The position numbers were made by a program, and so were the translations under genes. From a virus (taxonomy: Duplodnaviria; Heunggongvirae; Uroviricota; Caudoviricetes), in the IMG/VR virus record IMGVR_UViG_3300030444_000128: DNA of 19,646 nt. The stretch is one strand, 5' to 3'. Numbering within the stretch: position 1 is the stretch's first letter; the number at the start of each line of letters is the position of its first letter. The notes beneath the pieces were generated by a model. The model searched no databases. It had not been told where the DNA came from and saw nothing but the letters and a program-made list of their open reading frames with translations. This document shows, in pieces, positions 364 through 19,646 of the stretch.

Positions 364-429
364 AATAATAAATTAATTAGTGCATATGTGCTCTTTGATA
401 TAGCGCACATTAACATCGGGAGAATAATC

Positions 430-585
430 GTGTCATTCAAGGCTAATTATGAATCGCTGGCATCGATCATGCCGCGTAATGAACAGGAAGCAGATGCTGT
501 AGTGGACCCGGTAATCGCTGAAATGAATGCTCGCCTGGAGGCTGAATTTGCAGCTGAGAATGAACATACCACCCAGGGCGACTAG
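430..585 (+). CDS. small hypothetical protein (~51 aa from GTG 430)
   Basis: ORF 388-585. The GTG at 430 is preceded by GGGAGA (417-422) at good spacing. No recognisable domain. The start is uncertain (GTG 388 is the alternative). Confidence 0.3.
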   Translation: MSFKANYESLASIMPRNEQEADAVVDPVIAEMNARLEAEFAAENEHTTQGD

Positions 586-1189: not shown

Positions 1190-1713
1190 CGGTCAATGGG
1201 GCCATCGACTGGCTTAACCGCGCTTCTTATTTTTTCACCCTTGATCCATCGCCAGACAATATGCGGCGCGTTGGTCGTGGCCGCCGTCGCCGTGGTGTTT
1301 GTTATTGCATGGCACTACCCGATGTTAAAGAACGTGAAGTCAGAGATGGCGTTCTGTGCTTCCGTCGTGTGGCTGAGCGCGGCACGGAGCCAAAAAATAC
1401 GAATTCTCCCGAGTGGTGGGCGTGGCGCTGGTCCGCACATTTCGGCCTTTGCGAAGATGAGAATGAAATTGCCAGCGGCAATAGTGCATATGGTGCTCTG
1501 AACCTGGCTTTCCATATCGGATTCAAACATGTCGCCCTGGTGGGCGTTGACGCTACACAAGAACCACGCGTTCACTCCGGCGGCACGCCAAAAAATCTAA
1601 GTCACCTGCCTTTGTTATTCCAGTCTGCGCGTGAACAGATTGACGTTGTTTCATGCGGGAAAATGGGAGGTATTCCGCAGATGACTCTTAAAGAATGGCT
1701 GAAGAATACATGA
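1087..1713 (+). CDS. GT42/DUF115-like Rossmann protein (putative glycosyltransferase-like), paralog 2
   Basis: ORF 1087-1713. IIVGSGPSA...IIAVNG, then VALVGVDAT and RVHSGG, parallel the motifs of the upstream gene (tandem paralogs). AGGAG at 1070-1074. Overlaps the 3' end of the upstream gene by about 100 nt in another frame. Confidence 0.55.
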
Positions 1714-2387
1714 TGGCACCCACAATTTATCACCGTATCGACGGTACCAAATACAGGAATGTCTGGGTTGTTGGTGATCTGCATGGTTGCTACACCAGAC
1801 TGATGTCCGAACTCCATCGTGTGGATTTTGACCCGGCGCAGGATTTACTGATATCGTTCGGCGACCTTATCGATCGCGGTACTGAAAATGTCGAATGTCT
1901 GGAACTATTGCAGATGCCCTGGTTCAGGGCAGTGATGGGGAACCATGAGCGGCTGATGATTGATGCGTTAAGTCCAGATGGCAACGTGAATAACTGGCTA
2001 ATGAATGGCGGACAATGGTTCTTCATGCTGGACACTGATCAGGAAATATTAGCCTGGGCGCTGGTGGAGCTGGTAAAGCGTCTGCCCTATATCATTGAGT
2101 TGAACACCGGGCAAGAAACTATCGTTATAGCCCATGCCGACTATCCGGATAATGAATACCAATTCGGTAAGGAGGTGCCGCTTTTCAACGTTGTCTGGGC
2201 GCGCGAGCGTATCAGTGATTCGATGGATGATATTGGTGGCGAAATTTCGGGCGCAGATCGTTTTATCTTTGGTCACACTCCGGTGAAAAGCCCGAAGACA
2301 TTCTGGAATCAGCATTATATCGACACAGGTGCCGTATTTTGCGGAAACCTGACATTGATGAAAGTGAAAGGTGATGGTGCAGCATGA
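1695..2387 (+). CDS. Ser/Thr protein phosphatase, lambda-PPase-like (calcineurin-like metallophosphoesterase)
   Basis: Motifs in order: GDLHG, GDLIDRG, GNHE, then ...GHTP...IDTGAVF. Strongly resembles phage lambda phosphatase / E. coli PrpA along its whole length. Start could be ATG 1695, 1710 or 1713. Confidence 0.85.
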
Positions 2388-3085
2388 AGATTGCTTTAGT
2401 TCTTCGCTCTGGTGGTGACTATAACGCTTCCGATGTGCAGTGGCTGGTTAATCAACTGCCAAAAGGCTATGAAATTATTTGCCTGACAGACCTGAAGCGT
2501 TTACATGTACCTGGCGTCAAAGTTGTCCCATTGATCAACCAGTGGCAAAAGTGCCGTGGCTGGTGGGCGAAAATCGAGTTGTTCCGACCGGATATAACCG
2601 ATGATCTGTTCTATCTGGATTTGGACACGGTTATTGCCGGTGATATACGCCCAATCCTAGAGAATCCACCAACCAGCTTCACCATGCTTAGGGATTTTTA
2701 CCATCCACAATATCGTGGCAGCGGTGCCCTGTGGATACCAAATAGTGTAAAAGTGCATATCTGGAGTGCATTCTGGCAAGATCCGGAAGGTTGGATTGCT
2801 CGTTGTGTTACTACTGAATGCTGGGGTGAGCAGGGGTTTTTGCGGAAGGTTATGGGTGATGATACACCAGTATTTCAGGATCTGTATCCGGGATGGTTTG
2901 TAAGTTACAAGGCCGATGTTGTGGAACCTGGTTCGAAATATGCGAGCGCGCGTTACTCCAGGGGGAATGGGGCATTACCAAAAGACTGCCGAATAATCTT
3001 TTTCCACGGCAAACCGCGACCTCGCGAAGTGTCAGAGGATTGGCTTCCCCTTATCAGCTCATTTTTTGAGCGAGAATCAGAATAA
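2384..3085 (+). CDS. hypothetical protein, possible nucleotide-sugar (DXD-type) glycosyltransferase
   Basis: ORF 2384-3085, start overlapping the phosphatase stop (ATGA). Contains YLDLDTVI (DXD-like) after a beta-alpha-beta-like N-terminus. Family assignment is weak. Confidence 0.45.
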
Positions 3086-3086
3086 T

Positions 3087-3103
3087 ATTGCTCTAATAAT
3101 TCC
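3087..3103 (+). promoter_or_regulatory. C1-repressor operator-like site
   Basis: ATTGCTCTAATAATTCC versus the P1 C1 operator consensus ATTGCTCTAATAAATTT as I remember it (14/17). Lies immediately after the stop at 3083-3085. Confidence 0.6.
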
Positions 3104-3111
3104 ATATTTTT

Positions 3112-3141
3112 AAAACGTGATGTACACTCATCACGTTTTTT
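3112..3141. terminator. bidirectional rho-independent terminator
   Basis: AAAACGTGATG-TACACT-CATCACGTTTT: perfect 11-bp stem with an A-tract before and a T-tract after, so a hairpin plus U-run forms on either strand. Confidence 0.65.
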
Positions 3142-3152
3142 ATTAGAGCAAT
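3136..3152 (-). promoter_or_regulatory. C1-repressor operator-like site (inverted relative to 3087-3103)
   Basis: Minus strand reads ATTGCTCTAATAAAAAA (14/17 to consensus). Together with 3087-3103 it forms an inverted operator pair around the terminator, directly upstream of the 3167 operon. Confidence 0.55.
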
Positions 3153-3166
3153 CTATAAGGTGCACT

Positions 3167-3385
3167 ATGTGGCCATTCCGACGGAAATATCACTACTGGC
3201 TGATCGCCTTTGTTACGCTGACCGGCGGTATCAGGCATGTCATCACCAGGTATCGCAACAAGAGACTCACCTTAGCCAGAATTTTACAGGCTGCCATAGG
3301 TGAGGGACTGGATACAAATTGCGTAGTCCTTCCACCTTCATACTTAGGAAAAATGACCGAAGCACAAGCTAATACGGAACTTTGA
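3167..3385 (+). CDS. small hypothetical protein, probable single-pass membrane protein
   Basis: ORF 3167-3385 (72 aa). AAGGTG at 3157-3162, 4 nt before the ATG. Hydrophobic stretch YWLIAFVTLTGGI. Stop at 3383-3385 lies 1 nt before the next ATG (coupling). Confidence 0.4.
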   Translation: MWPFRRKYHYWLIAFVTLTGGIRHVITRYRNKRLTLARILQAAIGEGLDTNCVVLPPSYLGKMTEAQANTEL

Positions 3386-3386
3386 A

Positions 3387-4649
3387 ATGAGCACTTCAGC
3401 ACAAAACCAATCAATCGAAAATGTATCTATCCCTGATGTCCTGAATGCCGGTATCCCGGCCATTATCCAGAACATCCGGGCCGCGCAACGCCGCGTTAGT
3501 TGTGATGACCTCACAGCACGTTTTTTTGATAATGCGGTTCAGTCAGCGGAGATGCTTCACGCACAGCTTATTGATGTTTATAACGCAGAAGCTGATAGCC
3601 ATAACTCCCTGGTAGATGCAGCTGAAAATATGCAGTTGGATCTCGGTCTGAAGGGTAAAGAAATTGAAGAGCTTCAGCTGCAAATTGAACATTTGAAACG
3701 CCAGCAACAGGACGCGATCGACGATGCGACGCATGACGCCAACCAGCGTGCTGATAATGCCGAACGTATAAGCATTGAGCTGGAAACAAAACTCAATGAA
3801 ATGACCGCGATGGTTGAACTGCGGAACTCACAGATTTCAACGCTAAAATCTCAATATAAAGAGATCATGAAACTTGATCCTTTTAACCTTGAGAAACGCT
3901 ATAACAAAGCTAAAAGCGAGCGACAGGAACTGCGTAAGCAGGTCGCTGACCTTAACCAACAGCTCAAAAAAACTATTAAAGATGCAAGCGAAGCGCGCGT
4001 GGCATTTGCTAATAAAAAAGCAGAGGTTACCGCGCTGGTTAATGAGAATGCCAAATTTGCGACGCTCAAGAAGGAAATGTATGGCATTACTGAGCGCCGT
4101 TTCCCTGCAAGCAAACTTCATCCGACGTTAGGGCAAATCTCCTTCTTCCCGCGCCTCCTGGCTTATGGGATCTCATCGCCTAAAGAGTTCAATAACGAGC
4201 GTCCTTATATCGTTTCTAAGCTGGACTTTGCTTATCAGTTCTGCTGCGACATGGGCTATGCCATTGATATCCGAATCAACGAATGGTTGATGCCAAACTT
4301 CCAGCCGTTGGCAATTTTCCGCGAGTTCCAGCCGGAAGGTTGGGTAGAGTTCTTCCATGAATTGATCTGTAAAGAGATGGAAAGCCGCCGCCCGGAATTG
4401 GTCCGTCGAGTTGAGTGGGCGCAAGAGGTTATGTTGGCAGATGCAGAGCTGCCGTTCGAACCGGAATTCATTGATGATCTGGCAACTAAAGGGCTGCATA
4501 CCCTGTTTGATGTGGTTACCCGCCGTCATGAGCAGTTGGTTGTCGAATTGGGTTTAGAGGAAACTGCGGCAAGAAGACTTCTCGATGTTTGCTATGCACG
4601 TAGCGATGCATGGGAAAAAGAGAACGGCGGCACTATTTACGTTCGCTGA
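3387..4649 (+). CDS. hypothetical coiled-coil protein (420 aa)
   Basis: Long ORF with a heptad-like, charged Q/E/K-rich segment at roughly residues 90-220 and a globular C-terminal half. No family recognised. Followed by a strong terminator. Confidence 0.7.
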   Translation: MSTSAQNQSIENVSIPDVLNAGIPAIIQNIRAAQRRVSCDDLTARFFDNAVQSAEMLHAQLIDVYNAEADSHNSLVDAAENMQLDLGLKGKEIEELQLQIEHLKRQQQDAIDDATHDANQRADNAERISIELETKLNEMTAMVELRNSQISTLKSQYKEIMKLDPFNLEKRYNKAKSERQELRKQVADLNQQLKKTIKDASEARVAFANKKAEVTALVNENAKFATLKKEMYGITERRFPASKLHPTLGQISFFPRLLAYGISSPKEFNNERPYIVSKLDFAYQFCCDMGYAIDIRINEWLMPNFQPLAIFREFQPEGWVEFFHELICKEMESRRPELVRRVEWAQEVMLADAELPFEPEFIDDLATKGLHTLFDVVTRRHEQLVVELGLEETAARRLLDVCYARSDAWEKENGGTIYVR

Positions 4650-4668
4650 TGGTTACAGTGTCACTTTT

Positions 4669-4703
4669 AATGCTGGTGGAGTGCGCCCACCAGCATTTTT
4701 TTT
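4669..4703 (+). terminator. rho-independent terminator
   Basis: AATGCTGGTGG-AGTGCGC-CCACCAGCATT followed by TTTTTT: 11-bp GC-rich stem plus T-tract, 20 nt after the stop at 4649. Confidence 0.8.
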
Positions 4704-4722
4704 CGTCCAATGAGGAGGGCAT

Positions 4723-5229
4723 TTGAGTATTTACAATAAACACGCACACCAGGAACGTCCGTACATCGTCATAGTAGATATTGATGGGACGATATCAGAG
4801 GCAACGGAAGACAGGTTGCATTTACTTCCACCACCTGGCAAAGGTGCATTAACAGAGCACTGGAACGAGTTTAACCTTGCCTGTGACACTGATGCTCCCA
4901 TCACTCCAGTTATTGATATGGTGCGCCAGTTGTCCAGCATTTACACGCTCTGGTTTGTAACCGGGCGCTGTGAGATAGCCAGGGATAAAACACGAGCCTG
5001 GTTGCGTAAGCACGTAACAAATGGGGCTGAGCCTTTGCTATCTATGCGTCCTGCCACCGATGACAGAAATGATGGTCCAGCAAAGATTGATCTCCTTAAG
5101 AAAATTGGTCTAAGTAAAATTGCATTCGCGCTGGAAGATAAGATTGAAGTAGCGCGTGTTTTCAGGCATCACGGCGTGCTTACGTTAATGGTCAGAGAGT
5201 ACGAAAATGCGCTTCTTCATCAACAATAA
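4723..5229 (+). CDS. HAD-superfamily hydrolase-like protein (putative phosphatase)
   Basis: TTG start with GAGGAGG at 4712-4718. N-terminal VIVDIDGTIS (HAD motif I, DxDGT), FVTGR (motif II), AKIDLLKK and ALEDK (motifs III/IV-like). Confidence 0.65.
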   Translation: MSIYNKHAHQERPYIVIVDIDGTISEATEDRLHLLPPPGKGALTEHWNEFNLACDTDAPITPVIDMVRQLSSIYTLWFVTGRCEIARDKTRAWLRKHVTNGAEPLLSMRPATDDRNDGPAKIDLLKKIGLSKIAFALEDKIEVARVFRHHGVLTLMVREYENALLHQQ

Positions 5230-5245
5230 TTGCTCTAATAAATCT
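5229..5245 (+). promoter_or_regulatory. C1-repressor operator-like site
   Basis: ATTGCTCTAATAAATCT, 16/17 to the remembered consensus, overlapping the stop codon of the HAD gene. Confidence 0.65.
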
Positions 5246-5327
5246 TGATTTTTAAAACGGAGAAAGTGAAAATAAAAACATGCCGCAAGGCGCGGCATGT
5301 ATCCAATCAATCACAGGAGCTGAAAAT

Positions 5328-5414
5328 ATGAACACGGCATTCAAAATCATTATGGCCGCGATCTATTTCTGGCTGTTCTCTATCACTTTTGGCGGCATCG
5401 TCGCGCATGGGTAA
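5328..5414 (+). CDS. possible 28-aa hydrophobic peptide
   Basis: ATG 5328 preceded by AGGAG (5315-5319). Encodes MNTAFKIIMAAIYFWLFSITFGGIVAHG, essentially one transmembrane helix. Below the ORF-track cutoff; the call rests on the RBS and hydrophobicity only. Confidence 0.3.
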   Translation: MNTAFKIIMAAIYFWLFSITFGGIVAHG

Positions 5415-5493
5415 GGGGAGTATATTAGCCATTTGGAACCCCACGAGCTCTTGCGGGTTTAATTAAGAACCCGCAAGAAAAACACGAATTGGG

Positions 5494-8400
5494 CTATATT
5501 TTTCCGCCTACGCCTTTAAACTTCTCAATAAACGAGACGATTTTCTGGAAAACTGCCTGTTTTTTCGTTTTATATTGCGGATTCAACGGACTAAGTTTTG
5601 GTAATGTTTCGTTTAATTCTGTGCCATTTTCGGTGGCGTATTCGCGTTTTAAAGACGTGCGAATATAGCGTTTTGCTGCATCTTCATTGAGATTTTCTTC
5701 TTTTATCAATGCTTCTGCTTCACGTTGCTGTTCGCGTTGAGCAAACGTAAAGAATGCCTCAATGATACTGGCTTTGTCTGGTAAATCATCCAGGTTCGTT
5801 TGCTGAATAAAATCGACCACCAGGCCCTCTTTCGCCCGGTTCCCCAGGCTTGAACGAATTAAGCGTTTGACCTCTTCGATCATTTCGCCCTTGCCTTTAT
5901 TTTGTCTGTTGTGTTCGAAAATCAGTCCAAGGATATAATCCAGGTTTATTTCCTGAGACTTCAGCAAATCGACCTCAAAAACCACGTCATCCCAGTCAGT
6001 GGTTGATTTCTCTTTTTTCTCAGCTTCTTTCTCACGGCGCTGCCAGTCGCGAATATCGTTATAGGCAGAACGATAATCCTGAATCTTGCGATCAGCAGGG
6101 AGACGAATTGTTTGCAATTCAGCGAACTTTTCATCATCCACATAATGTTCTGCTTTGAATTTTTCTACCGCAACAGGATCGCTAAGATCGATTTGTTGCA
6201 GGGCTTTTAGCGTGGCAAATTCATCATAGTTTTGCAGGATGTTCTCGGCACGCAGGTATTCGCCAAACAGTTTAACGAAGTCTTTCTTCTCTTTTTCACT
6301 TTCAATACTGGCAGGGTCAGGGAACCGTTGTTCCAGTTCTGAAACTACTGCCATAAAGCCGCGTTTGGCTTCACCGGTGGCAGCATCAGTAAAACCTTCC
6401 ATATACTCTGCATAACTCTTTTCTAACACCACATTTTTGGTATTTTTATCACCAAACAGCGTTATGGCATCAATGGTTGAGCGTTCCAGATCCCGAAAAG
6501 TGACAATGTTACCGAAGGTTTTAGTGGCGTTATAAATGCGGTTGGTGCGGGAAAATGCCTGCATCAGGCCGTGAAAACGCAAGTTTTTATCGACGAATAG
6601 CGTGTTCAATGTTGGAGCGTCGAAGCCGGTTAAAAACATCCCAACGACAATTAACAGATCGATATCCTGATTTTTAACCCGTTGGGCTAAATCGCGATAG
6701 TAGTTCTGAAAACCGTTACCGTCGGTGCTGAAGTTAGTTTTAAAATAGCTGTTATACTCACGAATTGCAGCGTCAAGAAACTCTTTAGCACTGCTGTCCA
6801 TTGCGCTGGTATCAAAAGTTTCATCGGAAATTTCACCAATGGCATTTTGTTCTTCATTAGCGGCAAAGGAGAAGATTGTCGCAACACGCAGCGGTTTATA
6901 AGTTGCAGATTTATTAGCGGCTTCCTCTTGTAACCGTTTAAACGCCGCGTAATAGGCTTTTGCAGCATCCACGCTGCTCACTGCCAACATAGCATTAAAA
7001 CCTTTTGCGCCAGGGAAAGTACGGTGCGTCTTCTGGCGGAAGTTATTCAGAATATATTGCGTAATTTCCTGTATACGCATGGGATGAAGAAACGCCTGCT
7101 GATTTTCAGCCGCACTTAGTTTTTTCTCGTCAGTTTCTGTCTCTAAAGACTTAAACTGTGGCCGCACATCGTTGTAGTCCACCTTGAATTTGAGCACTTT
7201 TTCATCACGAATCGCATCGGTAATTACATACGAATGCAATTCACGACCAAATACGCTGGCGGTCGTTTCTGAGCCTAAGGCGTTTTCCGGGAAAATAGGT
7301 GTGCCGGTAAAACCAAACTGATAATAGCGTTTGAATTTCTTCTTCAGGTTTTTCTGCGCTTCTCCAAACTGGCTGCGGTGGCATTCATCAAATATAAACA
7401 CCACTTGCTGATTATATACAGGCAGGTCGCTTTCTGCTTTCATCAGGTTATTGAGTTTCTGAATAGTAGTGACGATAATTTTGTTATCGTCCTTATCCAG
7501 ATTTCGTTTAAGGCCTGCGGTATTTTCCGAGCCGTTGACGCTGTCTGGCGAAAAACGCTGATATTCCTTCATGGTCTGGTAATCGAGGTCTTTCCTGTCG
7601 ACCACAAAGAAGACTTTATCAATAAAGTCCAGCTCTGTTGCCAGACGCGCGGCTTTAAAGCTGGTGAGGGTTTTACCAGAACCGGTAGTGTGCCAGATAT
7701 ACCCACCGCTTTCCGGTTTTGACCAGTTCTTCGCTGTAAAGGAACTCTTAATTTTCCACAGAATGCGCTCGGTGGCGGCAATCTGGTACGGTCGCATCAC
7801 CAGTAGCGTCTGACTACTGTCAAAAACGCTGTAGTTCACCAGAACATTCAGCAGAGTATGTTTCTGGAAAAAGGTAGCGGTAAAGTCTTTGAGGTCTTTA
7901 ATCAGCGTGTTGTCTGATTTCGCCCAATTCATGGTGAAGTCAAAACTGTTTTTATCGCGCTTTGTCGTGTTGGCAAAATAACGGGTATCGGTGCCGTTAG
8001 AAATGACAAACAGTTGCAGATACTTAAACAGGGAATTTTCGCTGTTAAAACTCTCTTTACTGTAACGATGTATCTGGTTGAAAGCCTCACGAATCGCCAC
8101 CCCGCGTTTTTTTAGTTCGATTTGCACCAGCGGTAAACCATTAACCAGGATCGTGACGTCATAACGGTTAGCATGAGAACCCGTCTGTTCAAACTGCTGG
8201 ATAATCTGCACCTTATTGCGCATGAGATTCTTTTTATCTATCAAATAGATGTTCTCAAGTCGCCCGTCATCAAAAATAAAGTCGCAGATATAGTCGATAT
8301 GGATTTTACGGGTTTTATCCAGAATACCATCGCTGGGGTTGTCCAGATACTGCTCCGTGAAGCGCCGCCACTCGCTGTCATTAAACATCACACCATTGAG

Positions 8401-8610
8401 GCTCTGAAGCTGTTCCCGAACATTGGACAGCATTGCCGACTGTGATTTTACGGAAATAAATTCATAACCCTGATTTTGCAGGTCCTGAATCAGTTCACGT
8501 TCCAGGTCCGATTCGCTCTGGTAGCTGTCGCCTGTTGGCTCAGCTTTGATGTACTTATCAAGAACGATAAAGTTATTGGATTCAGCAATGGTGTGTGTCT
8601 GATGAGTCAT
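5494..8610 (-). CDS. hsdR: type I restriction enzyme R subunit (HsdR), EcoR124-like (type IC)
   Basis: 1038-aa ORF with helicase motifs ([12 protein letters not shown] Walker A; [14 protein letters not shown]-box-like) and the type I HsdR architecture. Length and N-terminus match my memory of EcoR124 HsdR. Lies downstream of hsdM-hsdS on the same strand. Confidence 0.93.
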
Positions 8611-8731
8611 AGCGCATCCTTTGTGCCGTCTGGCAAGGGCCGGAAGGGGGGTAATGGTGACTTCCGGCGCGTAAAAAATAGTCTATATACTGACCGGGTG
8701 TTAAGGTGGTCCGATCGGTAGCAATGATCAA

Positions 8732-9949
8732 TTAATTACTGGCAGTTTCAGGTTTCGGGAAACTGAACAGTAAATCACGGTAGTATTCGTATTGTTTCTG
8801 GCGCAACTCGATTTCACGCGGGAGACCTTCGGTGATAGAGTTGGTCAGGGTGTCGAATTTATCGAGTATTTCGACAATGCGAGCTTGTTCCTTAAGTGAT
8901 TTTTCGTGATCTTTAGGATATGGAACCGGAATCATAATTTTTGAAAAACCATTAATGAGTAGTGTATTAACTTTTGTTCTGGCTACATACTTTGCTTTTT
9001 CAGAAATAAACGAATCGGTTTGCATGTAATAGGAAATAAATTTTGGATTCAAAGAATGTCGAAAAGCATAACAGTGATCATGAATAGCGATATCGTCATC
9101 CCCAAGCCATGCCACTGCTTTACCAACGTCTTCTACAGTCTCCCCCACGTCAGTTATCACGACATCTCCATGTTTGGCATAGCGTAATGACGCTGCCATA
9201 TCAGCTCTAACCTGTGATAACGAATGAGTTGTGTAAACACCATATCGTGTATATATCTCACCATAATGGATTACACTGATACCACCATCTTCTACATAAT
9301 CTGCTTTAGTAAAACGTTTTCCACGAATAAACTCACCAATTTCCCCCAAAGTCTTCCACTCAACCTCACCATCTTTAAAACTCAACAACTGGTCGCGATA
9401 GTAGTTGTACTGTTTTTTACGCATGTTAAGCTCAGCGGTAAGCTCAGCGGTAAGTGCAGTAAATTTATCCAGAATCCGAACGATTTCAGACTGGATGGCA
9501 AGGGATTTTTCCGGATTATCCGGGCAGGGGATGGGGATAGGGAAATTCTCTAAGGTTGATAGCACGATATATGTCATTGCCGCGCTATTTGTTCTTTCCT
9601 CGAGATATTTCTTCAGGCTATGGCTAAGCACAAAATACAAAAATCTAACACTTACATTTTCGTCGAAATTTGTCAGAACATAGGTGCGCTGATAAGCCTC
9701 AAACTTGCCGATGTAATGCTTCACCTCACCAACATTCGCATTGCCTGCAATCAGCAATGCCTCTGTATCCCAGCGGAATTTATCAATTTTGCTTGTCTCT
9801 TTGGCTGTCGTGAAGAACATATACTCTCCATCATCAACAGCCGCATTCGCATTAAGCTTTCCTGTTTCAATTTTGCAAGTTTGCCCAAGTGTCTTCCACT
9901 CAACCTCAACCCCATCCAGCAATTTTTCCAGATAACTCATCTCGCTCAT
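8732..9949 (-). CDS. hsdS: type I restriction-modification specificity subunit (HsdS), type IC with TAEL x2 central repeat
   Basis: 405-aa ORF with two target-recognition halves (EVEWKTLG occurs twice) and the central conserved region ...[29 protein letters not shown]. Start ATG overlaps the hsdM stop (ATGA). Confidence 0.92.
9429..9452 (-). repeat. 12-bp tandem repeat (2 copies) encoding TAEL-TAEL in the HsdS central spacer
   Basis: Plus strand GCTCAGCGGTAA GCTCAGCGGTAA. On the coding strand this is the LTAELTAEL segment whose copy number is known to set the spacer length of type IC recognition sites. Confidence 0.9.
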
Positions 9950-11508
9950 TTCTGCACCTCGCAGCCTTCAATTTCAGCCACAATTGCATCAATATCTTTA
10001 CGCAACTGGTCGATTTTGCTGACCGTGGTTTTCAGCTCTGCATTCAGCTCACCGATATCGATAATTTCGCGGTTATCTTTCGCTTCCACATAGCTGCTCA
10101 CCGACAGGTTATAGTCATTCGCGACAACAGTCTCAAACGCAACAGATTTCGCCAGATGAGCAACATCTTCCTTGCTGGCAAATACCTGCATAATCTGTTC
10201 GATATGGGCATCGGTCAGGATATTGTTGTTGGTTTCTTTTTTGAACAGTTCGCTGGCATCAATAAACTGAACTTTGGTATCCGTTTTATGTTTAGACAGC
10301 ACCAGAATGTTTACAGCAATAGTGGTGCCAAAGAACAGGTTCGGTGCCAGTGAAATCACGGTTTCGACATAGTTATTATCGACCAGATACTGACGGATTT
10401 TCTGCTCCGCGCCGCCACGGTAAAAAATACCCGGGAAGCAGACAATCGCAGCACGACCTTTGGCCGAAAGATAGTTCAGCGCATGTAGTACAAACGCAAA
10501 GTCAGCTTTGGATTTGGGGGCCAGGACGCCAGCCGGGGCAAAACGTTCATCGTTAATCAGCGTCGGGTCATCGCTGCCAATCCATTTCACCGAATACGGC
10601 GGGTTAGAAACGATGGCATCAAACGGTTTTTCATCTCTGAAGTGTGGCTCAGTCAGTGTATTACCCAGCTTGATATCAAACTTGTCGTAGTTGATGTTGT
10701 GCAAAAACATGTTCATACGTGCCAGGTTATAGGTTGTATGGTTGATTTCCTGACCAAAAAAGCCTTCTTCGATGATATGGTTATCAAACTGCTTTTTAGC
10801 CTGCAACAACAGTGAGCCGGAACCCGCTGCCGGGTCGTAGATTTTGTTAACGTTGGTCTGCCCGTGCATAGCCAGTTGTGCAATCAGCTTGGAGACGTGC
10901 TGCGGTGTAAAGAACTCACCGCCTGACTTACCGGCATTTGCCGCATAGTTAGAAATCAGGAACTCATAGGCATCACCGAACAGGTCAATCTGATGTTCGT
11001 TGAAGTCACCAAGTTTTAACCCTTCAACCCCTTTCAGAACCGCAGCCAGGCGGGCATTTTTATCTTTAACGGTGTTACCCAGGCGGTTACTGGTGGTATC
11101 GAAATCAGCAAACAAACCTTTGATGTCTGCTTCTGAAGGGTAGCCGTAAGCAGAACTTTCGATAGCAACGAAGATGCTGTTTAAATCTGCGTTCAGTCTG
11201 TCATTGGTATTTGCTTTCGCAGCTACGTTGCAGAAAAGCTGACTGGGGTAGATGAAGTAGCCTTTAGTTTTGATGGCATCGTCTTTAATGTCATCAGTAA
11301 TTACGCTGTCATCCAGTTTCGCATAACAGATACTGTCATCACCGGCTTCAATATAACTGGAAAAATTTTCGCTGATAAAACGGTAGAAAAGTGCGCCCAG
11401 AACGTATTGCTTAAAATCCCATCCATCGACCGAACCCCTGACATCGTTAGCAATTTGCCAGATTTGACGATGAAGCTCTGCACGTTGTTGAATACTTGTC
11501 ATTTTCAT
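9946..11508 (-). CDS. hsdM: type I restriction-modification N6-adenine DNA methyltransferase subunit (HsdM)
   Basis: 520-aa ORF with the catalytic NPPY motif ([10 protein letters not shown]) and an AdoMet-binding region ([10 protein letters not shown]). Confidence 0.95.
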
Positions 11509-11647
11509 CCACTTATTTCAGGCTTATGTAATTGGCGGTGATTCTACAGCAACTTGGATGCTTTAGCAGTTCGGACATTAGGCTACGAATGACCTGCCTA
11601 GAGGTTTGTTAAGCCGCAAAGTGCTGGTGCTTTATGTCTGTGAAGTT

Positions 11648-11678
11648 TATAATTGTGTACACATAACGAGTACACGAG
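11648..11678 (+). promoter_or_regulatory. phd-doc promoter -10 (TATAAT) and Phd/Doc operator palindromes
   Basis: TATAAT at 11648-11653, then TGTGTACACATAACGAGTACACGAG containing GTGTACAC-type palindromic half-sites, then GAGGT SD 4 nt before the phd ATG. Consistent with the autoregulated P1 addiction operator. Confidence 0.7.
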
Positions 11679-11684
11679 GTATTT

Positions 11685-11906
11685 ATGCAATCCATTAACT
11701 TCCGTACCGCGCGCGGCAACCTTTCTGAAGTGCTCAACAATGTTGAGGCCGGGGAAGAGGTTGAAATCACCCGCAGAGGCCGTGAGCCAGCAGTAATTGT
11801 CAGCAAGGCTACTTTCGAAGCCTACAAAAAAGCGGCGCTGGATGCTGAATTTGCATCCCTGTTTGACACCCTGGACTCCACCAACAAGGAACTGGTTAAC
11901 CGATAA
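11685..11906 (+). CDS. phd: Phd antitoxin (prevent host death)
   Basis: 73 aa, [40 protein letters not shown]...; matches P1 Phd as I remember it. Stop overlaps the doc start (TAATG). Confidence 0.95.
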
Positions 11907-12286
11907 TGAGGCATATATCACCGGAAGAACTTATTGCGCTTCATGATGCGAATATAAACCGCTACGGCGGCCTGCCGGGAATGTCTGATCCGGGTAGGGC
12001 AGAGGCCATTATCGGGAGAGTTCAGGCCAGAGTTGCCTACGAAGAGATCACCGACCTTTTCGAAGTCTCCGCCACCTACCTGGTGGCTACAGCGAGAGGG
12101 CATATATTCAATGATGCCAATAAGCGTACCGCGCTAAACAGTGCGCTGCTATTTCTACGCCGTAACGGGGTGCAGGTATTTGATTCACCTGAACTGGCAG
12201 ACCTTACCGTAGGGACTGCGACTGGCGAGATATCTGTATCTACTGTCGCCGCCACGTTACGTAGATTGTATGGTTCTGCGGAGTAG
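11906..12286 (+). CDS. doc: Doc toxin (death on curing; Fic-fold kinase)
   Basis: 126 aa with the Fic-type motif [11 protein letters not shown]; matches P1 Doc as I remember it. Confidence 0.95.
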
Positions 12287-12290
12287 ATTA

Positions 12291-12470
12291 ATGGCACGCA
12301 AATGCAACAAATTGTCCCATAAAGCGTTAAAGATGCTTCTTGATGGTGTGAGTCGCCGCGAGGTAAAGCAATACCTGGTTGGTAAGCAAATTGGTGCCAG
12401 GACCGCTATTGCTGTGTTATGCCGTCAGGAAATGGTTGTGCTTAAACAGAGAATGCCGGGCAGCAGATAA
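12291..12470 (+). CDS. pdcA: small protein downstream of doc (pdcA position in P1)
   Basis: ORF 12270-12470. I place the start at ATG 12291 (MARKCNKLSHK...) just after the doc stop, with GGAG upstream. Named by synteny only. Confidence 0.4.
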   Translation: MARKCNKLSHKALKMLLDGVSRREVKQYLVGKQIGARTAIAVLCRQEMVVLKQRMPGSR

Positions 12471-12497
12471 AGCCCAATCAGTGATGAAAGGTGTGAT

Positions 12498-13541
12498 GTG
12501 AAAGCCATTATTACTCCCTTTGTACAAAAAGAGCTTGGCGTCGCCACATTCAAAGTGGATCAGGAAGTCAGAAAGCTGGTGGAGGCTGGCCGTAAATTTA
12601 TTATGGAGCCGGTGCCGCGTGAGTTAATCGAGCACATGGAAGACGGCCTCGTTGTTACCGAGCAAACCATGGCAACAAATGAGGCGTTGCAGCCGTTTTT
12701 TAACAGCGATGAACTGTTTCGCCGTATTGGTGGAATTGACTCGCTGATGGCGTGGTTGCGCAGGAAAGAGGGGCAATGCCAGGCCGCAGATCGTAGTTGG
12801 TGTGACAACCATATTGTCCACGCTGAACGAGACAATAGCGCGGTGTTGTTGTGCTGGCATCACGATAACCATTACCGGATGCGTGGTTTTAATGAGCTGA
12901 AAGAAACGCTGCATAATAATCGCGTTAACTGGATACTGGATGTCGCCCGTCAGGAAATGGGGCTTTCAGATGGCCATGATTTAAGTATTCAGGAACTGTG
13001 CTGGTGGGCTTTCATGCGCAACATGATGCACCTGATGCCGGAAGAAGTTTGCCGTATATCAATAAATAAGATGAAAGCCGCAACGCAGGATAGCGGACCT
13101 CTGAAAGAGGCGGATATTCGTCCGTATGACGATCGCGCTACAGCATATGTTCAGATGATGGAAGAACGCGCTGCGCCGATGCGTGCAAAAGTATGCCCTG
13201 TGGATGTTGACTCCGACCCTGGCATGGCGCATTTCAAAATACCAAAACTGCAATCGCTAAAATTACCTGAGTACATGGACTTTGTTGCTTCCCGTCCATG
13301 CTGTGGGTGTGGAGCGGCGGGAGCTGGCGCTCACATTACGCCTTATATAGTTCGTCATAGTCGATTATGCGCGCATGACATTTATGCTATTCCTCTGTGC
13401 CAGTCATGCCAGCGTGATATTGAGCGTGACCGCGATAATTGGGAGAAAACACACGGCAGGCTGGCGATGCATCAACGATTGTTCTTTGATTACGCGCTTG
13501 GAGTCGGCGTTATCACAAGTCATTCGTCGAGCGTTAGATAA
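12498..13541 (+). CDS. pdcB: PdcB-position protein with C-terminal Cys cluster (347 aa)
   Basis: GTG start with AAAGG upstream. C-terminal [14 protein letters not shown]...C...CQSCQ looks like a zinc-binding cluster. Named by synteny (between doc and lpa). Confidence 0.55.
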
Positions 13542-13542
13542 A

Positions 13543-13584
13543 ATTGCTCTAATGTGTTGCTATTTCTTTAATCGAGGGTATTAT
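13543..13584 (+). promoter_or_regulatory. C1 operator-like site overlapping a candidate sigma70 promoter for lpa
   Basis: ATTGCTCTAATGTGTTG (13543-13559, about 13/17 to consensus) overlaps a -35-like TTGCTA (13557-13562); 16-bp spacer; -10 TATTAT (13579-13584). Fits C1 repression of lpa. Confidence 0.5.
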
Positions 13585-13629
13585 ATTCCACGTTGATTAG
13601 TTGACATGGGCTAATCAGTAGGTGACAGG

Positions 13630-14082
13630 ATGTTACTTAACTGGCAGGGACGCCACTTCATGGAAATAAATCACTCACGAATAACATCGTACGAGATTGC
13701 GGATTACATGATCCGCACTAAATCTCTTCTATCAGCGAAAGAACTCGCAGCAATTCTTGAAAAGGAATACCCGCATCTGGATGTCGATAAGCGCGACGTT
13801 TATCTGCGCTTAAAGGCTATCGCTGTGTCTAAGTATTCGTCTGTTTTGATTGATGACAGTACACGCCCACGTAGATTTCAGATCCACTCTCTGAATCCTG
13901 AATTCTTTCGCCGCAGCCGCGCGCCGCGCCGGTTTGATGAAAAACTCCAGAACGAACTCTATATGACGCAGGACGAAAAGGAACGCCGGGAACACCAGCC
14001 TTGGGTAATGGCGCGTCAACTTTTCAATAAGGTAGCCCGTCAGCACCGTCATTACGGTAATGCCACATCCGCACGTATCTGA
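13630..14082 (+). CDS. lpa: late promoter activator Lpa (by position and size)
   Basis: 150-aa basic protein lying between pdcB and pacA as in P1, with a C1 operator-like site upstream. Assignment by synteny; no motif verified. Confidence 0.6.
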   Translation: MLLNWQGRHFMEINHSRITSYEIADYMIRTKSLLSAKELAAILEKEYPHLDVDKRDVYLRLKAIAVSKYSSVLIDDSTRPRRFQIHSLNPEFFRRSRAPRRFDEKLQNELYMTQDEKERREHQPWVMARQLFNKVARQHRHYGNATSARI

Positions 14083-14167
14083 TTGATTGCTTGCCCGTTC
14101 CGGGCCTTTTGACATGTGACTTTCGTTACCCTCGCGTCAAAAAGAGTTTTTACGAAAGGAAGCATAA

Positions 14168-15361
14168 GTGACCTGGGACGATCACAAGAAGAATTTTGCT
14201 CGCCTGGCGCGAGATGGTGGTTACACCATCGCACAGTATGCCGCCGAGTTTAATCTTAACCCTAATACCGCACGTCGTTATCTCCGTGCCTTCAAAGAAG
14301 ACACCAGGACAGCGGACAGCCGCAAGCCAAATAAGCCAGTCAGGAAGCCACTAAAAAGCATGATCATTGATCACTCTAATGATCAACATGCAGGTGATCA
14401 CATTGCGGCTGAAACAGCGGAAAAACAAAGAGTTAATGCCGTTGTCAGTGCCGCAGTCGAGAATGCGAAGCGCCAAAATAAGCGCATAAATGATCGTTCA
14501 GATGATCATGACGTGATCACCCGCGCCCACCGGACCTTACGTGATCGCCTGGAACGCGACACCCTGGATGATGATGGTGAACGCTTTGAATTCGAAGCTG
14601 GCGATTACCTGATAGATAACGTTGAAGCGCGGAAGGCCGCGCGCGCTATGTTGCGTCGGTCCGGGGCCGATGTTCTGGAAACCACTCTTCTGGAAAAGTC
14701 TCTTTCTCATCTCCTTATGCTGGAGAACGCCAGGGATACGTGTATTCGCCTGGTGCAGGAAATGCGCGATCAGCAAAAAGACGATGATGAAGGTACTCCG
14801 CCTGAATACCGTATCGCGAGCATGCTAAACAGCTGTTCCGCGCAGATAAGCAGTCTGATCAACACCATTTACAGCATCCGGAATAACTATCGAAAAGAAA
14901 GCCGGGAGGCGGAAAAGCACGCTTTGTCTATGGGGCAAGCTGGCATTGTTAAGCTGGCATATGAACGAAAGCGTGAAAATAACTGGTCAGTGCTGGAAGC
15001 AGCTGAATTCATCGAGGCGCATGGTGGGAAAGTTCCGCCCCTGATGCTGGAGCAAATCAAAGCCGATCTGCGTGCTCCTAAGACCAATACCGATGATGAG
15101 GAAAGGCAAACAGCCGTCGGTGGCCCTTCTCTTGACGATCTGGACAAAGTTGCGCGAGAACGGGCCGCCAACCGCCGCGCCGATGCCGCATTGTGGATTG
15201 AGCAGCGTAGGGAAGAAATCGCCGATATCGTTGATACAGGCGGTTATGGAGATGTTGATACTGAAGGTGTATCAAACGACCCATGGCTGGAACAAGACCT
15301 GGACGAAGACGAGGAGGAAGACGAAGAAGTTACCCGCAAGCTATACGGGGATGATGATTAA
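14168..15361 (+). CDS. pacA: P1 PacA (pacase / terminase small component)
   Basis: 397-aa ORF from GTG 14168 (GGAAG SD). Contains the characteristic pac hexanucleotide cluster near its 5' end and an acidic C-terminal tail. Stop overlaps the next start (ATGA). Confidence 0.9.
14361..14519. other. P1 pac packaging site (4 + 3 TGATCA/G hexanucleotide repeats with Dam GATC sites)
   Basis: TGATCA at 14361, 14368, 14380 and 14395; TGATCG at 14491; TGATCA at 14503 and 14514. Two clusters about 90 bp apart inside pacA, matching the described roughly 160-bp pac architecture. Confidence 0.9.
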
Positions 15362-16340
15362 TGGCCAGAAGTTGCGTAACGGATCCTCGTTGGCGCGAGC
15401 TGGTGGCGCTATATCGTTATGACTGGATTGCTGCCGCTGATGTTTTGTTCGGCAAAACACCTACCTGGCAGCAGGATCTGATTATTGAGTCTGTGCAGGA
15501 ACAGGGTAGCAAGACATCTGTTTCGTCTGGTCACGGTACCGGGAAATCAGACATGACTTCTATCATGATCATGTTGTTCATAATCATGTATCCCGGTGCC
15601 CGCGCCATTATCGTTGCGAACAAAATTCAGCAGGTAATGACCGGTATATTCAAGTACATCAAGATAAACTGGGCTACTGCCACCAGCCGTTTTCCATGGC
15701 TTGCTGATTATTTTGTTCTGACAGAAACCGCTTTCTATGAGGTTACTGGTAAAGGTGTATGGACTGTATCAATATCATGATGGTGTCCGGCCAGCGAAAT
15801 AAACGCCGTGTAATCAACTATCGAATGCTGGAATACACAGACGTTACAGAAACGCAGCTTGCCGCCAAAATTTTCGCAGAATGTAATCCTGAGCGATTCC
15901 CCAATATCACCATAGCGATAGATGGCGATGGCCTGGGTAAAGCAACAGCGGATCTGATGTACGAGTATTATGGTATTACCGTACAGCGTATACGCTGGGG
16001 TAAAAAGATGCATAGCCGTGAAGATAAGAGCCTGTACTTTGATAAACGTGCTTATGCCAACGTTCAAGCCGCAGAGGCCGTAAAATCTGGTCGTATGAGA
16101 CTGGATAAGGGTAATGAAACTATTGAGGAAGCGTCGAAAATCCCTGTAGGGATTAACTCCGCAGGTCAATGGAAGGTGATGAGTAAGGAGGATATGAAGA
16201 AAAAACTCAACCTGCACTCACCAGACCATTGGGATACATATTGTTTCGCTATGCTGGCGGATTATGTTCCCCAGGATGAAGTGCTTAGCGTCGAAGACGA
16301 AGCGCAGGTTGATGAAGCTCTGGCATGGCTTAATGAATGA
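15361..16340 (+). pseudogene. pacB: pacB (terminase large component), apparently internally deleted and frameshifted
   Basis: Two ORFs in different frames: 15361-15780 carries the Walker A (SGHGTGKSD) and 15759-16340 carries a nuclease-domain-like segment ([11 protein letters not shown]...HSPDHWD). No Walker B anywhere. The combined length (~326 codons) is well below the ~494 aa I recall for P1 PacB. A TAA at 15750-15752 blocks the frame of the second ORF upstream. Confidence 0.6.
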
Positions 16341-16343
16341 ACA

Positions 16344-16360
16344 TTTGCTCTAATAAATTG
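16344..16360 (+). promoter_or_regulatory. C1-repressor operator-like site
   Basis: TTTGCTCTAATAAATTG, 15/17 to consensus, immediately after the pacB stop. Confidence 0.6.
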
Positions 16361-16490
16361 TGTTTTTTAGCTACCGATGTTACATTGAACCTGACCTCTT
16401 GCGCCTTGAGGCATTTTCGGTTTATGCTTATCAGGCACCTCATTAAAACGGGTGCCGGGATTGGCCTCCCGCTTAAGTCTAAGGCGATAC

Positions 16491-16514
16491 AGACGCCGCT
16501 CGCGTCTTTTTTTT
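16491..16514 (+). terminator. probable rho-independent terminator
   Basis: AGACGC-CGCTC-GCGTCT followed by seven T: short GC-rich stem plus T-tract, downstream of pacB. Confidence 0.5.
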
Positions 16515-16679
16515 GTATCGGCGTACACGCACACCTCTACAATGGTGGGCTGTATGGGGCTACCTTCGGGTAGGCTGGTTACCTTGGACGCCAGTAAGGC
16601 CAACTCCGTACAGTCCACCGCCAGCAAGATTGGTCTCTTCTGCGGTGGTTACATACCAACGTCTAAGGAGGCTGCCAAT

Positions 16680-16901
16680 ATGGCTACTATCCCTACCCCA
16701 ACTCATCCTGAATTTATCTGGCGCTTTTACTCCTGCCAAAAACGTCACTATCACTTCGTTATTGCACCAACAGAAGATGAGGCCCGCTCTCAGCTTCCTG
16801 ACGCCCCATGTATTTTCTCTGCCCGTTTTTCCACTGATTCACGCAATTCTCTCAGTTACTGGTGCCTCCCTGTTAACGCTTCTGTTCAGGAGGGGCTATG
16901 A
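16680..16901 (+). CDS. small hypothetical protein (73 aa)
   Basis: ATG 16680 preceded by AAGGAGG (16665-16671). Stop TGA overlaps the ATG of the next gene (ATGA at 16898), suggesting coupling. It is the inner part of ORF 16452-16901. Confidence 0.45.
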   Translation: MATIPTPTHPEFIWRFYSCQKRHYHFVIAPTEDEARSQLPDAPCIFSARFSTDSRNSLSYWCLPVNASVQEGL

Positions 16902-18016
16902 GAACGTCATTAGTCACCCGTGAAGAGATGATCGAGGCAATTGAACAGCACACTGCCTGTATCAGCACCAGGGATATTCCCAGTGTTATAGCCAACTACT
17001 TCATGATCACTAAACAACTTTACCGGAGAAAGGACAAGAACGCGGTTCACCGTATCCTGCTGTCTGATATTCGCGAATACCTGCTCGAACAGGGTCATCT
17101 GAATTACGCAACCGTCGCAGCCGAAGCACGCAAGGAGGCACACAGAATGAAAGCAACTAACGTTAAATCAGAAAAAATTCATGCACCTTCAGTTCAGGAA
17201 TCGGAGCTGGTGGTTGTTCAGAATCAGTCTGATGAAATTCCCGTTCTGGAATGGCAGGGAGTGCGTGTAGTGACAACCGAGACTCTTGCTAGAGGGTATG
17301 GGACAGAAACAATCCGTATTCGCCAAAATCATCATGAGAACAAAGTACGCTTTGTTGAAGGGAAGCACTTTTTCAAAGTTGAAGGAGAATCATTGCGCGA
17401 GTTGAAGCACAGAGTAGCTTTAAACTACTCTGTAAAAATTGCTCGCAATGTTCGCTCACTCACCCTCTGGACAGAACGCGGCGCAGCCCGCCACGCTAAA
17501 ATGCTCGAAACCGATCAGGCATGGGCATTCTTTGAAAAACTGGAAGACAGCTACTTCCGACAAAAAGAACAGCAACCGATCGCAATCCCCCAGACGCTTC
17601 CTGAAGCCCTACGCCTGGCTGCCGAACTGGCTGAACAAAAGCAACTTCTGGAACAGAAAGCCCACCAGCTAAATCAGCAGCTGGTGGCCGCCGCTCCTAA
17701 AGTCGATTTTGCCGACCGGGTATCAGTAGCTAAAGGGATCCTGATTGGGAATTTTGCAAAGGTTGTTGGACTTAAGCAAAACGCGCTGTTTGTCTGGTTA
17801 CGGGAGAACGGCATCCTGATAGCGTCCGGTGGACGTAAAAATGTGCCGTTCCAGCAGTACATCAACGCGGGGTATTTCACGGTGAAAGAAGTGGTGCTGG
17901 ATGATGAAGATGGCTACCAGATACGGTTGACGCCTCAATTAACGGGTAAAGGCCAGCAGTGGTTGACGCGTAAACTGCTCGATGCTGGCTTGTTAAAACC
18001 GGTGGCAGCTGAATAA
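16898..18016 (+). CDS. antirepressor-like protein (ORF6N-type N-terminal domain + KilA-C/Ant C-terminal domain)
   Basis: Middle region VRVVTTETLARGYGTETIRIRQNHHENKVRFVEGKHFFKVEGESLRELK resembles the ORF6N domain; the C-terminal part (...LFVWLRENGILIASGG...QQYINAGYFTVKE) resembles the phage antirepressor C-terminal domain. AGGAGG 4 nt before ATG 16898. An internal ATG at 17147 also has a strong AGGAGG SD, so a shorter 289-aa product is possible. Confidence 0.7.
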   Translation: MRTSLVTREEMIEAIEQHTACISTRDIPSVIANYFMITKQLYRRKDKNAVHRILLSDIREYLLEQGHLNYATVAAEARKEAHRMKATNVKSEKIHAPSVQESELVVVQNQSDEIPVLEWQGVRVVTTETLARGYGTETIRIRQNHHENKVRFVEGKHFFKVEGESLRELKHRVALNYSVKIARNVRSLTLWTERGAARHAKMLETDQAWAFFEKLEDSYFRQKEQQPIAIPQTLPEALRLAAELAEQKQLLEQKAHQLNQQLVAAAPKVDFADRVSVAKGILIGNFAKVVGLKQNALFVWLRENGILIASGGRKNVPFQQYINAGYFTVKEVVLDDEDGYQIRLTPQLTGKGQQWLTRKLLDAGLLKPVAAE

Positions 18017-18048
18017 TGGAAGAATGCCCGGTTGATGCCGGGCATAAT

Positions 18049-18900: not shown

Positions 18901-18993
18901 TGATCCTCCTCCAGAATTGACATGGTCAATAACGCCCGGCTGAGAAAACCGGTCATTACTGACCTATATTATAGAGGGATCAAACAAAAATAA

Positions 18994-19339: not shown

Positions 19340-19646
<307 letters not shown>

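What the first reader, a model, noticed from the sequence alone, without database searches (positions are those of the whole stretch)
9429..9452. HsdS central 12-bp repeat present in two copies (TAEL-TAEL): a built-in specificity-switch hotspot
In type IC HsdS, the copy number of this 12-bp repeat (2 versus 3) changes the spacing between the two target-recognition domains, and hence the length of the non-specific spacer in the recognition site (the EcoR124I / EcoR124II pair). Two perfect tandem copies are directly visible here. Unequal crossing-over or slippage would toggle the specificity of the whole system.
Basis: partly seen in the sequence, partly recalled or inferred. Interest (0 to 1): 0.5.

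Follow-up and report, generated by a model that had tools for sequence, protein, structure and literature searches.

The report
EcoR124-type HsdS spacer repeat, two copies
The 12-bp tandem repeat is real and is the well-known TAEL "ruler" in the specificity subunit of an EcoR124-family type IC restriction system, here on a P1-like phage-plasmid; it is a textbook feature in a new combination of DNA-recognition domains.

Summary
Observation confirmed. Window 9427-9454 holds a perfect period-12 tract of 2.3 copies. On the minus strand it encodes TAEL-TAEL, residues 167-174 of a 405-aa HsdS (8732-9949), between hsdM (9946-11508) and hsdR (5494-8610).

HsdM and HsdR are 99% and 98% identical to those of an EcoR124I-type locus. 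The three conserved HsdS regions, including the repeat DNA, match EcoR124I almost exactly; both target-recognition domains (TRDs) differ.

New support from natural alleles:
- Two metagenome contigs differ by only the 12-bp unit across 1,594 aligned bases.
- At least eight other allele pairs differ by one TAEL unit plus 0-3 substitutions.
- Copy numbers of 1, 2, 3 and 4 all occur.

pIP1206 HsdS carries an identical TRD2 with three TAEL, and its published site is CCAGN6RTTG. I therefore predict [unknown TRD1 half-site]...RTTG here, with one base less between the methylated bases.

Caveat: all 16 distinct database sequences with this TRD pair (about 170 contigs) have two copies. This is an evolutionary-scale polymorphism, not a shown fast switch. 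Known mechanism, new member, low-to-moderate interest.

The parts
9428..9451 (-). Two in-frame copies of ACC GCT GAG CTT = TAEL-TAEL (HsdS residues 167-174).
9427..9454 (.). Full period-12 tract: 2.3 copies, 100% match.
8732..9949 (-). hsdS, 405 aa, type IC specificity subunit (Pfam Methylase_S, two stretches). Its start overlaps the hsdM stop by 4 nt.
9896..9949 (-). HsdS N-terminal conserved region (aa 1-18), identical to EcoR124I.
9545..9895 (-). TRD1 (aa 19-135). Unrelated to the EcoR124I TRD1. 100% identical to TRD1 of the 401-aa HsdS of P1-like plasmid pD72-mcr1 and of Salmonella phage SJ1. Present in 62 of 5426 complete E. coli genomes. Half-site unknown.
9341..9544 (-). Central conserved region (aa 136-203), a coiled-coil helix that contains the TAEL repeat. 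One residue differs from EcoR124I across the region (D193 versus E).
8894..9340 (-). TRD2 (aa 204-352). 100% identical to TRD2 of pIP1206 HsdS (published site CCAGN6RTTG); inferred half-site RTTG. The DNA cassette that differs from pD72-mcr1 is 8905-9327.
   Evidence: papers
8735..8893 (-). Distal conserved region (aa 353-405), the partner helix of the coiled coil. It has 19 aa between ILDKF and KQY, against 15 aa in the central helix.
9946..11508 (-). hsdM, 520 aa. 99.0% identical to the HsdM of an EcoR124I-type locus; full-length match to PDB 7bst_D.
5494..8610 (-). hsdR, 1038 aa, intact. 98.4% identical to the HsdR of an EcoR124I-type locus; full-length match to PDB 2w00_A. It lies 121 bp downstream of the hsdS stop codon.

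Best explanation
The repeat is the spacer-length determinant of an EcoR124-family (type IC) HsdS. Each 12-bp unit adds four residues (TAEL, about one helical turn) to the central helix of the antiparallel coiled coil that holds the two TRDs apart. The copy number therefore sets the distance between the two half-sites and between the two methylated adenines. With two copies this enzyme should use EcoR124I-type spacing, with 7 nt between the methylated bases. Its site is predicted as [TRD1 half-site, unknown]...RTTG, with one base pair less between the methylated bases than in three-copy enzymes. Gain or loss of one unit, by slippage or unequal recombination between the perfect repeats, would change the spacer by 1 bp and so create a new specificity for the whole methylase/endonuclease. 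Shown here: the anatomy, family membership, natural copy-number variants in otherwise identical alleles, and identity of TRD2 to that of an enzyme with a published site. Inferred: that this particular allele is active, the assignment of RTTG to TRD2, the spacer length, and the mutational mechanism. Switching looks like an occasional evolutionary event. High-frequency phase variation is not indicated.
For: Repeat and reading frame. Family membership: only PDB hit for HsdS is the EcoR124 S subunit; conserved regions match EcoR124I; HsdM and HsdR are 99% and 98% identical to those of an EcoR124I-type locus; Pfam EcoR124_C is found in HsdR. Mechanism in the literature: PMC3874165, PMC7383803, PMC10644984 (deleting one of three TAEL units converts EcoR124II to EcoR124I). 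Geometry: the central helix has 15 aa between ILDKF and KQY against 19 aa in the partner helix, so three copies make the two helices equal in length, as the review notes. Natural variation: flank-anchored scans give 32 loci with two copies, 17 with three and 1 with four. L029 and L036 show 0 mismatches in 1,594 aligned bases and one 12-bp gap. Eight protein pairs differ by one 4-aa indel at the repeat plus 0-3 substitutions. The CCAG/RTTG TRD pair occurs with 1, 2 and 3 copies. pIP1206 HsdS has TRD2 100% identical to the window's and three TAEL. Its site CCAGN6RTTG gives 8 nt between the methylated bases, which fits the three-copy rule described.
Against: No methylome or restriction data exist for this allele. 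All 16 distinct database sequences with this TRD pair (about 170 contigs) have two copies, and their clusters are singletons that hide no variants. There is therefore no direct sign of switching in this allele. The tract is only two units long, so slippage should be far rarer than at classic simple-sequence contingency loci. The TRD1 half-site could not be assigned. The assignment of RTTG to the C-terminal TRD rests on analogy with EcoR124I, EcoDXXI and EcoPrrI.
Confidence: 0.85

Rival explanations
1. The tract is a true high-frequency contingency (phase-variation) locus. It toggles within clonal populations and gives mixed methylomes, as simple-sequence repeats do in Neisseria or Haemophilus hsdS and mod genes.
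For: The repeats are perfect and identical in every locus examined. Some alleles that differ in copy number have no other nucleotide or amino-acid difference. The indel therefore arises at least as fast as any single substitution across the whole gene.
Against: The tract has only two or three units of 12 bp. All 16 distinct sequences and about 170 contigs with this TRD pair have two copies. No 5- or 6-copy tracts turned up in the viral scan, and only one 4-copy tract in the metagenome scan.
Confidence: 0.08
2. The repeat is just a fixed structural part of the coiled coil in this allele. Copy-number change here would give a dead or self-toxic enzyme, so it has no switching role.
For: This TRD pair shows an invariant two copies. 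The review points out that an extra turn in one helix must shift the coiled-coil register, and that how this is accommodated is unknown.
Against: Other TRD pairs that share the identical conserved helices, including ones with the identical TRD2, exist in nature with 1, 2 and 3 copies. Several of these are on tens of contigs (P0123 on 28, P0114 on 47, P0119 on 30). The 2-to-3 change is functional in EcoR124I/II.
Confidence: 0.07
3. The duplication is a chance or assembly artefact with no biological meaning.
For: None found.
Against: The chance expectation is about 5e-6 per window. The tract is in frame, conserved base for base in 50 independent loci, and present in the solved EcoR124 S subunit.
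Confidence: 0

Closest known systems
EcoR124I / EcoR124II (type IC restriction-modification, plasmid R124; PDB 7BST, 2W00)
   Same: Gene order hsdM-hsdS-hsdR. HsdM is 99% and HsdR 98% identical to those of an EcoR124I-type locus. The N-terminal, central and distal HsdS conserved regions match almost residue for residue. The 12-bp TAEL unit has the same DNA sequence and sits at the same place. Two copies, as in EcoR124I.
   Different: Both TRDs are unrelated in sequence to those of EcoR124I, so the half-sites are not GAA / RTCG. The host replicon is a P1-like phage-plasmid, with the system sitting between pmgS and phd/doc.
RM.EcoST101IX / pIP1206 (Tn6602) type I system, published site CCAGN6RTTG
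   Same: TRD2 and the distal conserved region are 100% identical. The pdcA-doc-phd-hsdM-hsdS-hsdR block is collinear at 96-98% nucleotide identity.
   Different: TRD1 is different, and there are three TAEL copies (427 aa) against two here. The block is IS1-flanked on an IncF plasmid.
HsdS of P1-like mcr-1 phage-plasmid pD72-mcr1 (401 aa)
   Same: Identical TRD1, central region and two TAEL copies. The flanking backbone is 98-99% identical.
   Different: TRD2 cassette differs (window 8905-9327). The window allele looks like a TRD2 swap made by recombination in the conserved regions.
EcoDXXI and EcoPrrI (type IC)
   Same: Same family and the same TAEL tract (review).
   Different: Both have three TAEL copies and N7 spacers.

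Membership tests
Type IC (EcoR124 family) restriction-modification system | HsdM and HsdR closely related to EcoR124 subunits. Families are defined by cross-hybridisation, antibody cross-reaction and subunit complementation. | tested here: met
   Full-length PDB matches: HsdR 2277 bits to 2w00_A, HsdM 1159 bits to 7bst_D. 98.4% and 99.0% identity to the subunits of an EcoR124I-type locus. Complementation itself cannot be tested with these tools.
Type IC (EcoR124 family) restriction-modification system | Operon order hsdM-hsdS with hsdR downstream after a gap. | tested here: met
   hsdM 11508-9946, hsdS 9949-8732 (4-nt overlap with hsdM), then a 121-nt gap before hsdR 8610-5494, all on the minus strand.
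Type IC (EcoR124 family) restriction-modification system | HsdS built from two variable TRDs separated by family-specific conserved N-terminal, central and C-terminal regions. | tested here: met
   Global alignment to EcoR124I-type HsdS: aa 1-18, about 136-203 and about 353-405 are nearly identical, and the TRDs are unalignable. Pfam Methylase_S matches in two stretches.
Type IC (EcoR124 family) restriction-modification system | Tandem TAEL (12-bp) repeat in the central conserved region. | tested here: met
   TAEL x2 at aa 167-174, window 9428-9451.
EcoR124I/II-type specificity switch | A change of one repeat unit changes the non-specific spacer by 1 bp while the half-sites stay the same. | not testable with these tools
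   Evidence here is indirect only. The 3-copy enzyme with the identical TRD2 has a site with 8 nt between methylated bases, as the rule predicts. Methylomes of copy-number variants of this allele are needed.
EcoR124I/II-type specificity switch | Copy-number variants arise naturally in otherwise identical alleles. | tested here: met
   Met for the family: L029 versus L036 show 0 mismatches plus one 12-bp gap, eight protein pairs differ only at the repeat, and there is a 1/2/3-copy series for the CCAG/RTTG pair. Not seen for this window's own TRD pair, where 16 of 16 sequences have two copies.
Phase-variable (contingency) type I hsdS loci | Long simple-sequence tract with high-frequency length variation within a population. 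| tested here: not met
   The tract has only two units of 12 bp. No length variation was found among about 170 contigs carrying this allele. The within-culture switching frequency was not measured.

The most novel reading that the evidence does not exclude
In enterobacterial EcoR124-family hsdS genes carried by P1-like phage-plasmids and IncF plasmids, the TAEL tract forms a recurrent natural allelic series of 1, 2, 3 and 4 copies on identical TRD pairs. Each TRD pair would then yield up to four working specificities. The natural 1-copy alleles (on tens of contigs) and the single 4-copy allele would be active enzymes with spacers outside the classic N6/N7 pair. This window's allele would be one slippage step away from two such uncharacterised specificities.
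Probability: 0.45. Interest if true: 0.35.

Novelty: new member of a known kind. Interest (0 to 1): 0.25.

Why it matters
The mechanism itself is textbook (EcoR124I/II). The modest added value has four parts:
- This is an uncharacterised TRD combination in that family, on a P1-like phage-plasmid, with a partly predictable site (...RTTG, two-copy spacing).
- Public data hold natural "EcoR124I/II-like" allele pairs that differ only by the 12-bp unit, plus 1-copy and 4-copy alleles. Repeat-number change is therefore a recurrent way for these mobile restriction systems to diversify, alongside TRD cassette swapping.
- Such changes alter which incoming DNA (phages, plasmids) is restricted, and they alter the host methylome.
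- These elements also carry resistance genes such as mcr-1 and blaNDM.

Tried and rejected
- **TRD1 half-site.** I could not assign it. The PDB holds only EcoR124 as a sequence relative. The 62 complete E. coli genomes that carry TRD1 include no strain whose methylome I could tie to it. A literature search for RTTG motifs yielded only the CCAGN6RTTG papers. The ST131 EC958 methylome paper was not relevant, because pEC958 carries only an orphan methylase.
- **Primary papers.** Those on repeat-number mutants (Gubler and Bickle 1991, PMC452739; Gubler 1992, PMC556444; Youell and Firman 2008, PMC2415743) are not held. My recollection that engineered 4-copy variants are promiscuous is therefore unverified and is not used.
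- **Whole-gene DNA searches.** No PLSDB plasmid, complete E. coli genome or phage record has this full hsdS; the best coverage is 72%. The exact protein is, however, in the protein collection.
- **Species-representative genome scan.** It gave only one locus.
- **Limits of the flank-anchored pattern.** It misses alleles with synonymous changes; pIP1206, for example, has GATAAG where the pattern has GATAAA. The 2/3/4-copy counts are therefore a sample, not a census. One-copy alleles were covered only by the viral scan (0 of 20) and the protein search.
- **Antisense ORFs.** The ORFs over the repeat (9224-9553 and 9405-9683, plus strand) were judged spurious: they lie inside a gene with strong homology on the other strand.
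- **Structure prediction.** Not run, because the conserved helices are essentially identical to those in the solved EcoR124 complex.

Full report
**Observation**

The sequence at 9429-9452 is AGCTCAGCGGTA twice. Tandem Repeats Finder reports 9427-9454, period 12, 2.3 copies, 100% matches, score 56. It is the only perfect array in the window.

On the minus strand the tract lies in frame in ORF 8732-9949 (405 aa), which reads ...[30 protein letters not shown].... By my arithmetic, sixteen consecutive period-12 matches are expected about 5e-6 times in 19.6 kb.

**What the gene and its neighbours are**

- The ORF is a type I specificity subunit (Pfam Methylase_S, two stretches).
- Its only sequence relative in the PDB is the EcoR124 S subunit (7bst_A, E = 1e-76). 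The alignment is nearly perfect in three blocks and poor in between.
- A global alignment with an EcoR124I-type HsdS from a viral contig (L007) puts the conserved blocks at aa 1-18, about 136-203 and about 353-405. The variable target-recognition domains sit at aa 19-135 (TRD1) and 204-352 (TRD2).
- Upstream, overlapping by 4 nt, is hsdM (9946-11508). Downstream after 121 nt is an intact 1038-aa hsdR (5494-8610).
- Both genes give full-length matches to the EcoR124 subunits in the PDB. They are 99.0% and 98.4% identical to the subunits of an EcoR124I-type locus.

This is therefore a member of the type IC (EcoR124) family with new TRDs.

**Context**

The window is backbone of a P1-like phage-plasmid (Punavirus):
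- 93% of it aligns at 97.8% to phage vB_EcoM-673R5, and 57-68% aligns to P1, RCS47 and SJ46.
- 155 PLSDB plasmids cover at least 80% of it.
- The hsd operon lies between pmgS and phd/doc.

**Mechanism from the literature**

The Loenen et al. review (PMC3874165) states the following:
- The 12-bp sequence is present twice in EcoR124I (GAAN6RTCG) and three times in EcoR124II (GAAN7RTCG).
- Each TAEL adds just over one helical turn, moving the TRDs 0.34 nm apart and rotating them 36 degrees.
- EcoDXXI and EcoPrrI have three copies.
- Hybrids with altered repeat number change specificity as predicted.

PMC7383803 and a bioRxiv paper repeat this account. PMC10644984 converted EcoR124II to EcoR124I by deleting one unit.

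In this protein the central helix has 15 residues between ILDKF and KQY, while the partner (distal) helix has 19. Three copies would make the two helices equal in length, in line with the review's remark that three is the apparent optimum.

**Natural copy-number variation**

I scanned public collections with the conserved flanks and a variable gap.

| Collection | 2 copies | 3 copies | 4 copies | Other |
|---|---|---|---|---|
| Viral contigs | 15 | 5 | 0 | no 1-, 5- or 6-copy tracts |
| Species-representative genomes | 1 | 0 | 0 | 1-copy not covered |
| Metagenomes | 16 | 12 | 1 (L032, intact 428-aa ORF) | 1-copy not covered |

Every unit in every locus is the identical TACCGCTGAGCT.

A protein search returned 120 close HsdS sequences. 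I removed the TAEL tract and clustered them at 95% identity or more, which gave several clusters of the same TRD pair with mixed copy number. Pairwise checks show that the members differ by exactly one 4-aa indel at the repeat and 0-3 substitutions elsewhere.

At the DNA level, metagenome contigs L036 (3 copies) and L029 (2 copies) have 0 mismatches over 1,594 aligned bases and a single 12-bp gap. This is a natural counterpart of the EcoR124I/II pair. One-copy alleles are not rare; P0114 is on 47 contigs, P0119 on 30 and P0123 on 28.

**This allele in particular**

Sixteen distinct full-length sequences (98-100% identical, about 170 contigs) carry the same TRD pair, and all are 405 aa with two copies. 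Their database clusters are singletons, so no variant is hidden.

No complete E. coli genome, PLSDB plasmid or phage record carries the whole gene. Nothing therefore shows that this allele itself switches. The repeat is best seen as a site of occasional, evolutionarily recurrent change, and a fast phase-variation tract is not indicated.

**Half-site prediction**

- TRD2 is a widespread module, joined to at least 15 different TRD1s.
- It is 100% identical to TRD2 of the pIP1206 HsdS (427 aa, three TAEL).
- The ST101 methylome preprint reports that RM.EcoST101IX is 100% nucleotide-identical to the pIP1206 system and methylates CCAGN6RTTG.
- A Nature Communications paper links loss of an IncF plasmid's type I methyltransferase to loss of that same motif.
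- In characterised type IC enzymes the N-terminal TRD reads GAA, TCA or CCA and the C-terminal TRD reads RTCG, RTTC or RTGC. By that analogy I infer that TRD2 reads RTTG.
- CCAGN6RTTG has 8 nt between the methylated A and the T opposite the other methylated A. That is the three-copy spacing given in the review. The two-copy window enzyme should therefore have 7.
- The same CCAG/RTTG TRD pair exists with one (419 aa), two (423 aa) and three (427 aa) copies.
- TRD1 is identical to that of the 401-aa HsdS of pD72-mcr1 and of Salmonella phage SJ1, and it occurs in 62 of 5426 complete E. coli genomes. I could not assign its half-site.

**How the allele arose**

Against pD72-mcr1 the window is 98-99% identical on both sides and through TRD1 and the central region. 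It differs only in a cassette at 8905-9327, which is TRD2. The family thus diversifies in two ways: TRD cassette exchange through the conserved regions, and TAEL copy-number change.

**Verdict**

The system is a new, uncharacterised member of a very well known family, and the repeat is identical to the textbook one. Interest is low to moderate. The main additions are the natural allelic series and a partial site prediction.

Noticed in passing
window 1-147 and 19340-19646: Both ends of the window are insertion-sequence fragments. The first 147 nt are 99.3% identical to IS1 ends in pIP1206, and the last 307 nt are 89% identical to sequence next to an IS5 transposase gene there. Phage matches cover only 145-19339. 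This probably explains why the assembled contig ends at these points.
   Followed up: partly
window about 15361-16340 (pacB): The terminase large-subunit gene pacB has an internal deletion of about 503 bp relative to phage vB_EcoM-673R5 (L001 16147-16649 are missing at window about 15768). This leaves aa 1-136 and 288-494 in different frames (ORFs 15361-15780 and 15759-16340). The element may be packaging-defective, or the deletion may be an assembly error.
   Followed up: partly
window 5335-12775 versus L054 (pIP1206, NC_010558) 30720-38226: The IS1-flanked transposon Tn6602 of IncF plasmid pIP1206 carries pdcA-doc-phd-hsdM-hsdS-hsdR. This block is collinear with the P1-like window at 96-98% identity. 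It suggests that the widespread IncF type IC system was captured from a P1-like phage-plasmid together with the phd/doc addiction module.
   Followed up: partly
L032 (metagenome contig OASQ01000144.1) 643-725: A natural hsdS allele with four perfect TAEL units in an intact 428-aa ORF. I found no described natural four-copy type IC enzyme in the papers I could read.
   Followed up: partly
proteins P0069, P0074, P0075, P0107-P0117, P0119, P0123 (and 54 hits): Natural one-copy TAEL alleles occur on many contigs (up to 47 per sequence), paired with two-copy alleles of the same TRDs. They predict spacers one bp shorter than EcoR124I-type spacing. They are not discussed in the review I read.
   Followed up: partly
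PDB 7bst_A (alignment): The solved chain labelled 'EcoR124II specificity protein' is 404 aa and shows TAELTAEL. That is the two-copy, EcoR124I-type tract, so the database name does not reflect repeat number.
   Followed up: no
L002 (Salmonella phage SJ1, OQ595196) 2873-3613: In this 24.5-kb record filed as a Punavirus, hsdS is cut off after TRD1 and the central region by IS3/IS110 transposase genes and a mer operon. An HsdS truncated in this way could act as a homodimer with a palindromic specificity, as described for EcoR124I and EcoDXXI truncations.
   Followed up: no
L001 (phage vB_EcoM-673R5, ON470615.2) 5933-11884: In the closest phage record hsdR and hsdM are annotated as several fragments (HsdR1, HsdR2, two methylase pieces). 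In the window both genes are intact. The fragmentation is either real decay or frameshift errors in that record.
   Followed up: no
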